From positions 608,001 through 672,000 of the forward strand of contig CAWBMV010000034.1 of assembly GCA_963789955.1 (NCBI GenBank): a stretch of 64,000 bases of DNA, in the 5' to 3' direction. Numbering within the stretch: the first letter of the stretch is position 1; every line of letters begins with the position of its first letter. A program made the position numbers. The stretch is from an uncultured Candidatus Rokubacteria bacterium (GTDB taxonomy: Bacteria > Methylomirabilota > Methylomirabilia > Rokubacteriales > CSP1-6). This document shows, piece by piece, positions 30,001 through 36,000 of the stretch.

Positions 30001-33000
30001 CGATCGGAAACGCCGTGCCGGCGAGCGCGGCGGCGCCCAGGGGCATCGACGCGGCCCGCGCGCCGCAGTCGGTGAACCGGTCGCGATCGCGCTGCACCAT
30101 GAACACGTAGGCCAGAAAGTGGTGGCCCAGCACGATCGGCTGCGCGCGCTGCAGGTGCGTGTAGCCCGGCAGCGGCGTTTCGAGCGTCTCGGCGGCGCGC
30201 GCGACCAGCGCCTCCTGCACGCGCCGCAGTCCCGCGCGAATGCGCGCGATGATCTCGCGAAGGTACAGGCGTTCGTCGACCGCGATCTGATCGTTGCGTG
30301 AGCGCCCGGTGTGCAGCTTGCCGCCGACCTCGCCGATCAATTCTTGAAGCCGCCGCTCGATGTTCGTGTGGATGTCCTCGAGCTCGGTGCGGTACGGGAA
30401 GGTCCCCGCCGCCAGCTCGTCGCGGACGGCGGCCAGGCCCCGGACGATCGCGTCGCGCTCGGCGGCCGACAGCAGTCCGGCCCGCGCGAGCGCCTTGGCC
30501 CACGCGACGCTGCCGGCGATATCGTGCGGCCAGAGCCGGCGGTCGAAGGCGATCGATCCGGTGAACCGCTCGGCGGCGGGGTCGGCGCCCGCGGTGAACC
30601 GGCCGCCCCAGAGCTTTTCCGACTTCTCCGCGCCGCTCCGCGGAGCCGCGCGCTTGCGGGGCCGCGACTTCACGGCAGGAGCGCCGCGATGTCGTCCATG
30701 ATCCGGCGTGTCACGTGGGAGCGAGCGCTCCGCCGCCCGTGGGATCCGTCGCCCGAGAAGCAGCGCGCCGGGCCGAACCTGACACCGATCGGGACGCGGC
30801 GTGGAATATAGCCGCGGCGTCCCGCGAGCGCCTCGTACGTGCCGCGGATGCCGGCCGGGATGACCGGCACGCCCGAGCGCAGCGCCAGGAGCGCCACGCC
30901 GGGCAGTCCCGGCTCGAGCCGGCCGCGCACGCTGAAGGGGCCCTCGGGGAAGATGCCCACGACGCGACCTTCCTGCAGACTCTGCAGCGCGCGGCGGAGC
31001 GCGCCGACATCGGCCCGATCCAGATCGATCGGAATCGAGCGGATGTTCCGATGAAAGATCGGATGCAGGGGCGTCGCGCGCCAGACGCGCGGCATCACCA
31101 GGAAGGAGATCGGGTCCGGGACGGTGACGCCGAGCACGACGCCGTCCAGATAGTTGTGATGGTTCGCCGCGATGAGATACGGGCCGCTCGCCGGCAGGTG
31201 CTCGAGACCATCGACGCGAAGATCGAACCAGCGCACCAGCGCTTGCCGGAGCGGCGGGCGGAGCGCGCGATAGAGGAACGGCACGGCTGGGGCTTCGCGG
31301 GTGATGCTCCCGGTCTCGGCAAGCGTGCTGGGGCCGGCCATGTCGCGCGTTTTATAGCACGGTTCACCGAGCGCGGGCGAGCCGGTACCGGGCGACCGCC
31401 GCGTTGTGCTCGGCGATCGTCGCCGAGAAATGATGATGGGTGTCGTCCATCGCGACGAAGTAGAGGTAGTTCACCGGCGCCGGATCGAGCGCCGCCTCGA
31501 TCGCCGCGATCCCAGGGCTCGCGATCGGCCCGGGAGGCAGTCCCGGGTTGCGGTACGTATTGTACGGATGGTCGAGCCGGAGATCGGCCCGAGTGAGCGC
31601 GCGCCGTTCCTTGCCGGTGGCGTATTGCACGGTGGGATCGGCCTGAAGCGGCATCTTGAGCTTGAGCCGGTTCCAGAACACCGCGGAGATCGTCCGCATC
31701 TCGCCGCGCTCCACCGCCTCGCGCTCGATGATCGAGGCGAGCGTGAGCAGCTGGTGCACGGTCAGCCCGCGCGCGGCGGCGCGCGCCGTGATGTCGGCGC
31801 CCATCTTCGCGCGAAGGCGCTGCACCATGCGGGTCAGCATCTCCTCGGGGGTCATGCCGCGCACGAACTGATACGTATCGGGGAACAGGTAGCCCTCGAG
31901 GCTCGGCGCCTCGACCCCGAGCATCGAGAGAAAGGCCGGATCGGCGGCCAGACGGCGGATCGTGGCGCTCGGCGCCAGACGCTCGGTCTCGAGGGCGCGG
32001 GCGAGCTCGGAGACGGTCGCGCCCTCGGGCTGCAGGACGAGGTGCTGCTTGACCCGCCCGGACTCCAGCTGGCTCAGGACGTCCAAGGTGGATGCGCCCC
32101 GGTCGAGCTCGTACTCACCCGCCTTCAAACGCCGGGTGGTGCCCCGGAGCCCGGCCAGGACGACGAAGCCCGCGCGGCTTCGGATCCCACCGGCCTGCTG
32201 CAGACGGTTAGCGATCTCCAGGACGCCGTCGTGGGCTGGAATCTCCACGAGCACCGGACCGGCCTGGAGCGCATCGGTGGGCGTCGCGACTTCGTAGCCC
32301 AGAAGGGCGACGACGGCGACCCCAACGAGCATGAGGAGGGCGATGGCGGCACGCAACCCCATGATTTCCCAGTGTAACATCGGGGCTCTGGTATACTGTG
32401 ATGCCTTGGTGGCCGAATTACCCCGATCACACTGGCTCGCTTCTAGGGGGTCCCATGCTTGAGTTGCAACTGCCCACCCGTCACGATTGGACTGTCCAGG
32501 ACAAGACTTACGGCAAGCTGTCGATCGAGCCTTTCGAGGCCGGCTTCGCCCTGACCGTCGGTATCGCGTATCGCCGGGCGCTTCTTTCGGCGATCCACGG
32601 CGCCGCGCCGACCTGGGTCAAGATCGAAAACGTCCTGCACGAGTTCTCGCATCTGCCGGGTGTGATGGAAGACACGCTCGACATCATGATGAATCTCCGC
32701 AAGGTCGTGTTCACCTTGCACGTGAACCGGCCCAAGATCCTCCGGCTCCGCGCTCAGGGCAGCGCGGTCGCCAAGGCCAGCGACTTCGAGACCGACGCGG
32801 ACATCGAGGTCCTCACGCCCGACGTGGTCCTGGCGACCCTCGACAAGGACGGGGTCTTCGAGATGGAGGTCTGCGTCGAGCGCGGCCGCGGCTACGTGTC
32901 GGCCGAGAAGCGCGAGCCCGAGGCCCTGCCGATCAACGCGATCCTCCTGGACGCCGACTTCTCGCCGGTCAAGCGGGTGAACTTCCACGTCGAGCCCGTG

Positions 33001-36000
33001 ACCGAGGGCCGCGAGCGGCTGGTGCTCGAGGTGTGGACCGACGGCAGCGTCAGTCCGGCGACCGCGGTCGGCGAGGCGTCGCGGATTCTCGAGGACCACT
33101 TCGATCTGCTCATGGACTTCCCGGAGGTCTCGCCGCAGGAAGAGGCCGCCGAGCGCGACGAGGCGCGGCCGCGCACCGAGCTGAACGAGAACCTGTTCCG
33201 CAACGTCGACGAGCTGGAGCTGTCGGTCCGCGCGTCGAACTGCCTCAAGACCGCGAACATCCGGACCATCGCCGACCTCGTGCAGAAGACGGAAGCCGAG
33301 CTCCTGAAGACCAAGAACTTCGGCAAGAAGTCGCTGAACGAGATCAAGACGATCCTGGGCGAGATGAGCCTGTCACTCGGCATGCGCCTGGATCCGGAGG
33401 AGCTGGAGCGCCTGCGCTCCCAGTACGAACGCGCCTACGAAGCCTAGGGCGGGCAGGTCGCTGAAAATGGCCCGGCTGCTTCGTTGGCGCCCTCGGCTAC
33501 ACGCTCAACGTACAGCGAGTACGCCTCGCGTGTAGCCTTCGGGCGCCGCCTCGCATCCGAACCTTTTTGAGCGACCTGCCGGCGTTGCCGGTCCGACTCG
33601 AAGAAGATCTAGCCCGACCGGAAAGCAACTGCACTCGCTCGGTGCGGGCTTCGCTTGCTAGCGGGAGAGGCGGGTTTTGATGCGGTCGACGGCTTCTTCG
33701 GTTGAGGCGCGGGCGCCGAAGGCGGTGAGGCGGAAGTAGCCCTCGCCGCTCGGGCCGAAGCCGGCGCCGGGGGTGCCGACGACGTGGGCCTCGTTCAGGA
33801 GCTTGTCGAAGAAGTCCCAGGACGATAGACCGCCCGGGGTCTTGACCCAGATGTACGGGGCGTTGCGCGCACCGTAGACCGTGAGTCCCGCCGACTCGAG
33901 TCCTTCCCGAATGATCCGCGCGTTCTCCATGTAGTAGTCGACGAGCGCGGTGACCTGCTTCTTGCCCTCGGCCGTGTAGGTCGCGGCGGCGGCGCGCTGG
34001 ATGACGTAGGCCACCCCGTTGAACTTGGTGGACTGGCGGCGGACCCAGAGCGAGTTGATGCTCACCGTCTCGCCCGAGGCCGAGCGGCCCTGCAGCTCCT
34101 TCGGTACGACGGTGTAGGCGCAGCGCGTGCCCGTGAAGCCCGCGGTCTTCGAGAAGGAGCGGAACTCGATCGCGACCTCGCGCGCGCCCTCGATCTCGTA
34201 GATCGAGTGCGGGATCGCCGGGTCGCGGATGTAGGCCTCGTACGCCGCGTCGTAGAGGATGACGGCGCTCCGCTCGCGCGCGAAGTCGACCCAGGTCTTC
34301 AGCGCCGCGCGCGTCAGCACCGCGCCGGTCGGATTGTTCGGGTAGCAGAGGTAGATCAGATCGACCGGCCGGTCCGGGATGCGCGGCTGGAAATTGTTCT
34401 CGGCCGTGCACGGCAGGTACACGATCCGATCGTAGCGACCGCTCGCGTCCGCGTTCCCGGCGCGTCCGCCCATCACGGTGACGTCGAGGTACGCGGGGTA
34501 TACCGGGTCGCTGAGCGCCACGACACAGTCCGGCCCGAAGATCTCCTGGATGTTGCCCGTGTCGCTCTTGGCGCCGTCGCTCACGACGATCTCGTCGGCG
34601 GTGAGCTTGATGCCGCGCTCGCCGTAGTCGTGACGGATGATCTCGTTGACGAGGAAGTCCCAGCCGGTCTCGGGCGGATAGCCGCGGAACGTTTCCGGCC
34701 GCGCCATCTCGTCGACGGCCTCGTGCATCGCGCGGATCACCGCGTCGGGCAGCGGCCGCGTCACGTCACCGATCCCCAGGCGGATGAGCTTCGCGTCGGG
34801 GTGCGCCGCCTGATATTCACGCGTGCGCCGGCCGGTCTCGCTGAAGAGATAGCTGGCGCGCAGCTTCAAGTAGTGGTCGTTTATCCGGGTCATGACGCAC
34901 GATTCTAGCAGATCGGTTCGGGGTCGAGGCAGACGCGGTCGATCCGTCCCGAAGCCCACCGTGTGACGGTCAAGGTGGCGCCGTCGGTCTCGAAGATGAG
35001 CGCGCCGTCACGATCGGTCCGATAGATCTGAGCGCCGGCCTCGGAGAGTCGCGCCACGACGCCGGCATCGGGATGTCCGTACGCGTTACGCGCTCCGACC
35101 GAGATCGCCGCGAGCCTCGGGCCGACCGTGCGCAGGAACTCGGAGCTCGTCGAAGAGCGCGAGCCGTGATGGGCGACCTTGAGGACCATCGAATCCAGGC
35201 GCGCCCCCGCGGCGGTCAACTCGCGCTCACGCGGGATGCCGATATCGGAGGTGAGCAGGAACGAGGCGAGCCCCATGTCGATTCGCAGCACCAGCGCGGC
35301 TTCGTTGCGCCGCCAACCGTTCACCGCGGTGGAGGGGAGCGCCGCGAGCTCAGCGCCACCGAAACGCCGCGTCGTCGGAGGATTCGCCGCGGTCCACTCC
35401 TCGTCGATCGCGAAGAGGCGCCGGACCGCGCCCGCGCCGCCGGCGTGATCGCTATCATCGTGGGTGACGGCGAGGCCGGCCAGTCGCAGAATGCCGCGAT
35501 TCCAGAGGAACGGAGCGACCACACGCTCGCCGGCGTCCAGACGCATCGGGCCGCCTGATCCCGCGTCGATGAGCAGGGCACGGCCGTCGGGCGTCTCGAC
35601 GACGATCGCGTCGCCCTGGCCCACGTCGAGGATGGTGAGCCGCAGCAGACCGTCGGCCGGCCGCACGAGCGGCCACGCCGCGACGCCGACCGCCAGAGCG
35701 AGAAGCGCGGCTCCGAGAAGGAGCCATGCACGCGCGCTGCTCACCTCGCGATCTCGGCCGACGCGCCAGACGAGCAGTGATGCGAGTCCGCCGACGTAGC
35801 ACGTCACGGCGACCCAGCCCGGAGCCGGGAGATAGAGGACCGCACAAGGCACCTTGGCGGCGACCGCGACGAGCCCGCGCAACGCCAGCAGGACGGGCCA
35901 GACGGCGTCGAACGCCACCGCCGCGACGCTGTCGCTGAGAAACGACAGGCCGACGGCCACGAGCCCGCCGACCGTGGCGACCCCGGCGAGGGGAACGACG

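What a model noticed while it worked through the whole genome (the two positions that open the first line are those of the whole stretch)
32455..33447. Two ancient, divergent RNA polymerase alpha-subunit genes (plus a third on an island)
Besides the rpoA in its usual place between rpsD and rplQ (C34:329205-330177, broken here by an assembly indel) the genome has a full-length second rpoA (g05742, 330 aa, only about 41% identical) next to mltG, and a third copy (g03302, C16:6681-7673, 79% to g05742) beside a transposase and an integrase. Boldest reading: Rokubacteriales RNA polymerase carries an alpha1/alpha2 heterodimer, or exists in two alpha-defined forms with different promoter or activator contacts, as proven so far only for Francisella. 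New: an order-wide, ancient rpoA duplication in which the copy that kept the ribosomal-operon position is the more diverged one.
Evidence so far: pfam.tsv: g05742 and g03302 have RNA_pol_L, RNA_pol_A_bac and RNA_pol_A_CTD; tblastn finds three loci. Among genomes at least 90% complete, 24 of 25 of family CSP1-6 (the one with a single match is unpublished G216) and 5 of 5 of the second family of the order have two copies (67-97% and 38-45% identical to g05742, no stops; one copy in G228 is cut by a contig end), against 1 of 15 in the sister orders of the class. In 7 of 7 CSP1-6 genomes inspected one copy lies in S11-S4-rpoA-L17 and the other beside mltG; 5 of 5 outgroups have only the operon copy. 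ML tree (22 rows, LG+C20): operon copies of CSP1-6, mltG-linked copies and outgroup copies form three clades at 100/99-100 support; mean iden [...]
(Added by a program. Inside this text positions count along the whole contig: contig position 608,001 is position 1 of the stretch shown here. "Call 12" and the like, gene names such as g00115 and contig names such as C1 are that model's own, and its searches are not shown. The text may have been shortened before it was handed on; [...] marks where a part breaks off. The agent that wrote the report below was given it as the finding of a first reader that could run no searches.)

Follow-up and report, generated by a model that had tools for sequence, protein, structure and literature searches.

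The report
Two specialised RNA polymerase alpha subunits
Nearly all genomes of this order of uncultured soil bacteria carry two different genes for the RNA polymerase alpha subunit, and each copy has lost a different one of the two docking surfaces, so the enzyme very probably needs one of each, an arrangement proven so far only in Francisella.

Summary
Confirmed and sharpened. The window gene (32455-33447, 330 aa, divergent from mltG; 'M') is an intact rpoA. A second ('O') lies in S11-S4-rpoA-L17. Both occur in 104 of 124 Rokubacteriales genomes; 17 of the 20 exceptions were checked and fit assembly gaps. One of 46 sister-order genomes has a real second gene. The losses are complementary. The beta-protected motif H66-E67-F68 is in 64/64 M, 0/60 O and 33/33 outgroup copies; the beta-prime hairpin (R191, G193, D197, Y198) is in 60/60 O, its motif in 0/64 M. 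The published Francisella and Chloroflexus pairs show the same split. O's C-terminal domain keeps only DNA-contact residues in one family and is deleted in another (14/14). Best reading: an oriented heterodimer, M on beta and O on beta-prime, arising by duplication and reciprocal decay (about 0.8). A fold gave weak support (0.57; best control 0.02). No protein evidence exists. The third copy is a recent, relaxed M duplicate. This scan reported the same two-alpha idea three times on other genomes; I found nothing in print. New variant of a known kind.

The parts
32455..33447 (+). rpoA copy M (mltG-linked), 330 aa; predicted beta-side (alpha-I) subunit
   Evidence: AlphaFold2 model matches solved alpha chains
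32638..32646 (+). H62-E63-F64 (E. coli H66-E67-Y68), inside the beta-protected segment 65-75; kept in M, lost in O
   Evidence: 64/64 M, 0/60 O, 33/33 outgroup; segment defined in PMC3294249
32992..33018 (+). Shortened hairpin, residues 180-188: the E. coli 186-201 beta-prime element is 4 residues short here and has lost its motif
   Evidence: span 181-200 is 15-23 residues in M, exactly 20 in 60/60 O and 33/33 outgroup; motif in 0/64 M; element described in PMC13202282
33181..33360 (+). Canonical alpha-CTD with DNA-contact residues and E261, E286, E288, K291
   Evidence: Pfam PF03118; column counts
32389..32397 (+). Extended -10-like box (TGnTATACT), predicted own promoter of M
   Evidence: TATA[AC]T within 130 nt upstream of 62 of 63 M copies; genome background about 0.002 per such stretch; 0 of 4 extra copies. 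Function not tested
32445..32450 (+). Shine-Dalgarno-like AGGGGG before the ATG
   Evidence: sequence; purine-rich run before the start in the upstream listing
31364..32362 (-). mltG (YceG family), divergent neighbour; marks the locus, no functional link shown
   Evidence: divergent neighbour in 61 of 64 M loci, the other 3 end at contig ends
33658..34896 (-). Convergent class I/II aminotransferase (dapL-like; name recalled from the lysine genes nearby), flanking gene only
   Evidence: Pfam PF00155

Best explanation
Rokubacteriales RNA polymerase is built on an oriented alpha heterodimer. A normal alpha homodimer sits asymmetrically: one monomer docks beta, the other docks beta-prime, so each uses only one of its two faces. 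After rpoA duplicated in the ancestor of the order, each copy lost the face it did not use. M (own promoter, beside mltG) kept the beta face and a complete CTD and lost the beta-prime hairpin; it is alpha-I. O (ribosomal operon) kept the beta-prime hairpin with L83 and K86 and lost the beta-face motif; it is alpha-II. Both genes then became indispensable. O's CTD decayed further: in families f1 and f3 it keeps the DNA-contact residues but has lost the sigma- and activator-contact residues, and in f2 it is gone, leaving one CTD per enzyme. SHOWN: the two genes, their synteny, co-retention, purifying selection, the complementary motif pattern, the CTD deletion. FROM LITERATURE: which segments beta and beta-prime protect; that the Francisella pair is a heterodimer. 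INFERRED: that M and O assemble together, their orientation, that homodimers are poor, and the order of events. A minor M homodimer, as suggested for Francisella alpha1, is not excluded.
For: Motif split: H66-E67-F68 in 64/64 M, 0/60 O, 33/33 outgroup; R191, G193, D197, Y198 in 60/60 O and 33/33 outgroup, loop motif in 0/64 M; K86 in 54/60 O, 0/64 M; L83 in 60/60 O. Segments were defined beforehand by PMC3294249 (65-75 beta; 175-185 and 195-210 beta-prime; K86) and PMC13202282. Retention of outgroup-conserved columns: 65-75, M 0.84-0.96 vs O 0.29-0.41; 186-201, M 0.17-0.25 vs O 0.66-0.67. Positive control: in the supplement alignment of PMC3294249, Francisella alpha1 keeps the 66-68 motif and has a 5-residue gap in the hairpin, alpha2 shows the reverse, and the Chloroflexus pair splits the same way. 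Co-retention 104/124; no genome showed rpsD and rplQ without O. dN/dS 0.06-0.12 for 3 M pairs and 0.07-0.17 for 3 O pairs. One rpoB and one rpoC in 5/5. M and O are sister clades (96/85). Fold of M-NTD + O-NTD + beta-prime fragment: weak support, 0.57 against best control 0.02; the control keeping M and beta-prime but replacing O scored 0.01; runs agree in >=93% of contacts, partner pLDDT >=78; the mark was reached by 116 of 157 solved and 2 of 215 mismatched pairs, but at <=0.60 by only 18 solved pairs and both mismatches, and like complexes are solved, so the pass may be from memory.
Against: No protein, pull-down or proteomic evidence. R45, the classic beta determinant lost in Francisella alpha2, is kept in all 64 M and 60 O, so orientation is not fixed by it. 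Two of the five literature segments do not discriminate: 30-55 (M 0.73-0.85, O 0.76-0.79) and 175-185 (M 0.80-1.00, O 0.69-1.00). The discriminating columns are adjacent and inherited, so they amount to two or three events, not 124 observations. The dimer residues named in PMC3294249 show no clear block to homodimers. The mirror fold control (M replaced) was not run, and M alone has no dimer partner in the control that was. No residue-level contact list was available: the interface rows of the supplement lost their spacing. By a strict pattern, 39 of 138 full-length alpha representatives from elsewhere also miss the loop motif while keeping HEF (many look like ordinary variants of normal length, some are deletions), so a hairpin-less alpha may work alone in some lineages.
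Confidence: 0.8

Rival explanations
1. M is the working alpha, as a homodimer; O is an accessory or vestigial protein kept for another role (assembly aid, regulator, or spacer for translational coupling to rplQ).
For: M has the canonical CTD, keeps R45, and scores higher on the rpoA model. O is more diverged and has lost its CTD in f2. Francisella alpha1 alone gives low activity (PMC3294249). Other alphas with altered hairpins exist. Extra copies in the genus are all of M type.
Against: O keeps the beta-prime hairpin at fixed length in 60/60 while M lets it drift from 15 to 23 residues; O is under purifying selection, is predicted to fold as a complete alpha-NTD with high confidence, and the beta-prime score fell from 0.57 to 0.01 when O was replaced (weak).
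Confidence: 0.1
2. Two polymerase forms, M2 and O2, with different promoter or activator contacts.
For: The genes have separate promoters and different CTDs; both keep R45.
Against: Each homodimer would lack one docking face. An O2 enzyme in f2 would have no CTD. Neither copy was seen lost. In Francisella this idea was tested and homodimers were not detected in vitro (PMC3294249).
Confidence: 0.05
3. Origin only: M came by horizontal transfer from another phylum, not by duplication, and then divided the work with the native O. The mechanism today would be the same.
For: M sits outside the operon. A tree holding O with the sister-order copies is not rejected (p-AU 0.084). Both stems are long, so M+O could be an attraction; one unrelated long row (P0025) fell in the same fork.
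Against: That tree is 16 log-likelihood units worse; M+O held together is 2.4 better than the free tree (p-AU 0.57); M with the outgroups is rejected (p 0.003). M and O share 7 derived columns against the outgroups. No closer non-Rokubacteria relative of M appeared among the best 150 of 1.84 billion representatives; full-length hits drop from 69% to 49% or less.
Confidence: 0.1
4. Binning artefact: the two copies come from different organisms.
For: Mis-binned rpoA contigs do occur: G120 holds a foreign-looking one and G148 holds a contig 99.9% identical to G098's operon contig.
Against: M and O lie on the same contig in G000 and in several others, e.g. G064, G078, G114-G116, G118; both clades recover the same three families.
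Confidence: 0.01

Closest known systems
Francisella RpoA1/RpoA2 heterodimer (Mukhamedyarov et al. 2011, PMC3294249; PDB 6wmp lists alpha 1 and alpha 2)
   Same: Two diverged paralogs, one in the ribosomal operon; one keeps the 66-68 motif and has a shortened hairpin, the other the reverse; lineage-specific duplication with long branches.
   Different: Here the operon copy is the beta-prime type (in Francisella it is alpha1, the beta type); both copies keep R45; the split spans an order of at least three families; the beta-prime-type copy has a decayed or deleted CTD. Independent origin is inferred from the paper's placement of both Francisella copies in gamma-proteobacteria; they were not in my trees.
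Chloroflexus rpoA pair (listed in PMC3294249, not tested there)
   Same: In the supplement alignment the operon copy lacks the 66-68 motif and keeps the hairpin, the other copy the reverse, and both keep R45: the same orientation as here.
   Different: Three genomes of one genus in that alignment; only the NTD is shown, so CTD status is unknown; no experiment seen.
Archaeal and eukaryotic Rpo3/Rpo11 (Rpb3/Rpb11) alpha-like heterodimer
   Same: Fixed heterodimer with the larger chain on the beta-like side and a smaller one opposite (PMC3294249 discussion); the f2 O copy is the shortened chain on the predicted beta-prime side.
   Different: f2 O keeps the insert domain (PF01000), which Rpb11 lacks (recalled); M keeps a bacterial CTD; no homology beyond the shared alpha fold is implied.
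Streptomyces avermitilis second rpoA and other recent duplicates (PMC3294249)
   Same: A second gene outside the operon; resembles the third copy here.
   Different: Near-identical copies with both surfaces intact; no division of labour.

Membership tests
Bacterial RpoA | Dimerisation, insert and CTD domains | tested here: met
   M, f1 O and f3 O have all three; f2 O has the first two only
Bacterial RpoA | Alpha-subunit fold | tested here: met
   M model pLDDT 69, all listed Foldseek hits are RNA polymerase entries; O model pLDDT 79 with the same element order, not searched
Francisella-type oriented alpha heterodimer | Two non-identical rpoA paralogs kept across the lineage, one in the ribosomal operon | tested here: met
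   104 of 124 genomes; rplQ beside 60/60 O, mltG beside 61/64 M
Francisella-type oriented alpha heterodimer | One copy keeps the beta-protected 65-75 motif, the other the beta-prime hairpin | tested here: met
   this feature is my reading of the paper's alignment and is not stated in the sections I read
Francisella-type oriented alpha heterodimer | R45 lost in the beta-prime-side copy | tested here: not met
   R45 in 64/64 M and 60/60 O
Francisella-type oriented alpha heterodimer | K200 changed in the beta-side copy | tested here: inconclusive
   R in 63/64 M, K in 55/60 O, but R also in 7/33 single-copy outgroups
Francisella-type oriented alpha heterodimer | Beta-side copy is the one in the operon | tested here: not met
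   reversed here, as in Chloroflexus
Francisella-type oriented alpha heterodimer | Both chains in one enzyme; homodimers absent or weak | not testable with these tools
   only a weak fold score that may reflect solved complexes
Francisella RpoA1/RpoA2 (orthology) | Common descent from the same duplication | not tested
   Francisella sequences were not in my trees; M+O are sisters apart from E. coli
Rpb3/Rpb11 (Rpo3/Rpo11) | Small subunit reduced to the dimerisation domain (recalled) | tested here: not met
   f2 O still has PF01000

The most novel reading that the evidence does not exclude
Bacterial alpha duplications resolve repeatedly along one path: one copy drops the 66-69 beta motif, the other drops the R191 hairpin. 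Rokubacteriales, Francisella and Chloroflexus would be three independent replays of the split that fixed Rpb3/Rpb11 in archaea and eukaryotes. Rokubacteriales go furthest: family f1 has a polymerase with two unlike CTDs (one complete on the beta side, one for DNA only on the beta-prime side), and family f2 has a natural polymerase with a single CTD, tethered to the beta-side alpha.
Probability: 0.6. Interest if true: 0.8.

Novelty: new variant of a known kind. Interest (0 to 1): 0.65.

Why it matters
The alpha homodimer is a textbook constant of bacteria; a 2026 paper still calls the Francisella heterodimer unique (PMC13627669, passage). An order-wide second case, with the same surfaces lost, turns an oddity into a rule with a two-motif sequence test that can be run over all genomes. 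It gives natural material for old questions: which alpha-CTD is needed for UP elements, sigma region 4 and activators, whether one CTD suffices, and how a homodimer becomes an obligate heterodimer, the step that separates bacterial from archaeal and eukaryotic polymerases. In practice, rpoA is not a single-copy marker in this order, and pipelines will mix two paralogs about 41% identical.

Tried and rejected
RNA evidence: 15 of 23 listed runs were RNA holders, none with half the words. Four were laid: all are contigs; near-identical pieces cover M in X4 and X7, but X1 covers all 30 bins like DNA, and contigs show neither strand nor level, so expression is not shown. Their one-base differences at 28441, 29454 and 37010 fit indel errors in the window assembly. 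Foldseek of the M model could not tell alpha-I from alpha-II chains. The interface-map rows of the PMC3294249 supplement were unusable (spacing lost; part 2 of 3 not read). Segments 30-55 and 175-185, R45 and the six named dimer residues did not separate the copies. Position 225 is acidic in most M and basic in most O (K in 33/33 outgroups); a charge pair favouring heterodimers is possible, but I had no contact data and do not count it. The second copy in sister-order genome G157 was tested as an M ortholog and rejected: it groups with P0033 (99) or inside the outgroup. Second matches in G127, G132, G137 are fragments or split genes, in G148 a mis-binned operon contig, in G120 a foreign-looking contig. 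dN/dS for f2 pairs was not obtained (script error). Rows dropped before the motif counts: broken or cut copies (L031, L134, L148, L168), duplicates (L052, L053, L098) and unpublished G149 and G156. The 64 M and 60 O aligned are a part of the 114 and 112 genomes holding each. Literature searches for this case: searches gave 0 papers; some searches gave only Francisella, archaeal, plastid or unrelated titles; one search gave 60 papers, of which the 15 listed had no 'rpoA'. The library lacks most subscription papers. A search for oriented-CTD experiments gave one paper, so the idea that the beta-side CTD serves the promoter-proximal site is recalled only and not used as evidence.
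Full report
OBSERVATION. Window 32455-33447 encodes an intact 330-aa RNA polymerase alpha subunit with all three Pfam domains, head to head with mltG. The genome has two more rpoA loci: one in S13-S11-S4-rpoA-L17, split by one extra base relative to three congeners in an assembly whose rpoB and rpoC are split too, and one on C16 beside a transposase-like ORF and an integrase. I call the mltG-linked type M and the operon type O. Named records holding O are almost all labelled Rokubacteria or Methylomirabilota.

DISTRIBUTION. Searches with M and with an intact O over 124 genomes of the order show both types in 104, or 67 of 77 at >=90% complete and <=5% contaminated (three unpublished genomes are in these counts). 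I checked 17 of the 20 exceptions. Four have the missing copy cut by a contig end. Five M-only genomes lack rpsD and rplQ as well; G120, G088 and G097 lack rpsD. Three O-only genomes lack mltG, and two have it 130 and 339 bases from a contig end; no M start was seen in those stretches, and the mltG-M distance reaches 427 and 1545 bases in two relatives. G006, G029 and G099 were not checked. No true loss was seen. Of 46 genomes of sister orders, 45 have a match and five have two; only G157 has a real second full-length gene. rplQ flanks 60 of 60 aligned O copies; mltG is the divergent neighbour of 61 of 64 M copies, the rest ending at contig ends. One rpoB and one rpoC were found in 5 of 5 genomes.

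HISTORY. In a 56-row tree rooted on E. coli, M (100/99) and O (100/100) are sister clades (96/85), each recovering families f1, f2 and f3; stems are 0.43 and 0.79. With 16 further alphas from a search of 1.84 billion representatives, M+O held together is not rejected (p-AU 0.57), M with the sister orders is (0.003), and O with the sister orders is not quite (0.084). M and O share seven derived columns. Duplication in the ancestor of the order is the best account; transfer of M is not excluded. Both are under purifying selection (dN/dS 0.06-0.17, six pairs). A -10-like box lies upstream of 62 of 63 M copies against a background near 0.002.

WHAT EACH COPY KEPT. I aligned 64 M, 60 O, 33 single-copy outgroup proteins, 4 extra copies, the G157 second copy and E. 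coli alpha. PMC3294249 (main text parts 1-3 of 5 read) gives E. coli segments 30-55 and 65-75 as protected by beta, 175-185 and 195-210 by beta-prime, with K86 needed for beta-prime. PMC13202282 (parts 1-2 of 4) describes 186-201 as the element that rearranges to hold beta-prime. H66-E67-F68 is in 64/64 M and 33/33 outgroup copies and in 0/60 O. R191, G193, D197 and Y198 are in 60/60 O and 33/33 outgroup copies; the loop motif is in 0/64 M, where the span 181-200 runs from 15 to 23 residues against exactly 20 elsewhere. K86 is kept in 54/60 O and is R in every M. Against this, R45 is kept everywhere, and segments 30-55 and 175-185 do not separate the copies. These columns are neighbours and inherited, so they stand for a few events.

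POSITIVE CONTROL. The weight comes from convergence. In supplement 1 of PMC3294249 (parts 1 and 3 of 3), Francisella alpha1, which the paper places on beta, keeps the 66-68 motif and has a five-residue gap in the hairpin; alpha2 has lost the motif and keeps the hairpin. The three Chloroflexus pairs split the same way, with the operon copy as the beta-prime type and R45 in both, as here. The sections I read do not remark on this pattern.

THE TAILS. M has a canonical CTD (0.70-0.72 identity to outgroups). O in f1 keeps R265, N268, N294, G296, K298 and S299 in 45/45 but has E261 in 2/45 and C269 in 0/45, and has mostly lost K291. Passages of PMC9638938 assign the 265 determinant to UP DNA, 261 to sigma region 4, and 286-291 to activators; the individual DNA-contact residues are recalled. 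In f2 the O gene ends after 247-255 codons in 14 of 14 fetched, its stop overlapping the rplQ start, and the M query, which includes a CTD, found only two matches in each of the 15 f2 genomes. This is a clean deletion, not a frameshift.

FOLD TEST. M-NTD, O-NTD and a 278-residue beta-prime fragment of G020 scored 0.57 for beta-prime against a best control of 0.02; with O replaced by an unrelated protein the score was 0.01. Runs agreed in at least 93% of contacts, partner pLDDT at least 78. The tool rates this weak: 116 of 157 solved and 2 of 215 mismatched pairs reach the mark, but at 0.60 or under only 18 solved pairs and both mismatches; like complexes are solved, no contacts were given, and the mirror control was not run.

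MECHANISM. Each monomer of a normal alpha dimer uses one face. After duplication, each copy can lose the unused face at no cost, and once both have, the pair is locked in. M is alpha-I, O is alpha-II; O's CTD then became partly or wholly dispensable. Genes, motifs and selection are shown; co-assembly and orientation are inferred (0.8). Rivals: M homodimer with an accessory O (0.1), two enzyme forms (0.05).

THIRD COPY. The C16 gene and three intact copies in G022 and G028 form a clade inside M (100/99). They match each other at 87-95% DNA identity with little shared flank, have dN/dS 0.30-0.41, and lack the M promoter box; related copies in G025 and G098 are broken. They are recent, relaxed duplicates, not a third alpha type; being shared with congeners, the C16 copy is unlikely to be a stray contaminant.

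NOVELTY. The kind is known from Francisella. New are the lineage (an order), the reversed genomic orientation, retention of R45, the decayed or deleted second CTD, and the recurrence of one loss pattern in three phyla. Six searches found nothing in print on this case, within a library that lacks most subscription papers. Three earlier notes of this scan reach the same two-alpha reading on other genomes; I had set down my reading before that look-up, and they are not independent support. Interest 0.65.

Noticed in passing
L126 5046-6113 (G157:C3, sister order): A second full-length rpoA 3 kb from an intact operon copy, in the odd order rplF-rpsK-rpoA-fusA-like; it keeps the 66-68 motif and has lost the hairpin motif. 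It groups with unnamed P0033, not with M. An early stage of the same split, a transfer, or a mis-assembly.
   Followed up: partly
P0010, P0033, P0075, P0091, P0114, P0120, P0138 and P0081, P0130, P0143, P0149: Alpha representatives from other lineages that keep only one of the two motifs; candidates for further hidden heterodimer pairs. P0010 is named from Candidatus Termititenax.
   Followed up: no
PMC3294249 supplement 1: The Chloroflexus rpoA pair shows the same complementary losses; a culturable test case.
   Followed up: partly
window 28367-30673 and 42295-43633; L031 30-2202: Many apparent frameshifts in housekeeping genes (argH-like, homoserine dehydrogenase-like, secY, adk, map; names recalled from the translations); the assembly is rich in indel errors, so broken genes here need a check against relatives.
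   Followed up: partly
L280 (G148:C124) and L291 (G120:C358): Mis-binned rpoA contigs: one 99.9% identical to the operon contig of G098, one with an actinobacterial-looking alpha (impression from recall).
   Followed up: yes
L032 2760-4637 (G000:C16): A Pup-ligase gene (PF03136) lies 2 kb from the third rpoA copy, apparently broken or interrupted at its 3' end near the transposase-like ORF.
   Followed up: no
G028:C104:3755-4063; G086:C28 and C12: CTD-only or partial M-like fragments elsewhere in these genomes; remnants of extra copies or free CTD genes.
   Followed up: no
window 33448-33657: The M-dapL spacer holds a roughly 200-base stretch absent from the closest relative's locus and skipped by two RNA-library contigs; a similar stretch follows M in L012. 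Possibly a small repeated insertion element.
   Followed up: no
alignment column 225 (E. coli numbering); window residue E213: Acidic in most M, basic in most O, K in all outgroups, on the dimer helix; a possible heterodimer-favouring charge pair.
   Followed up: no
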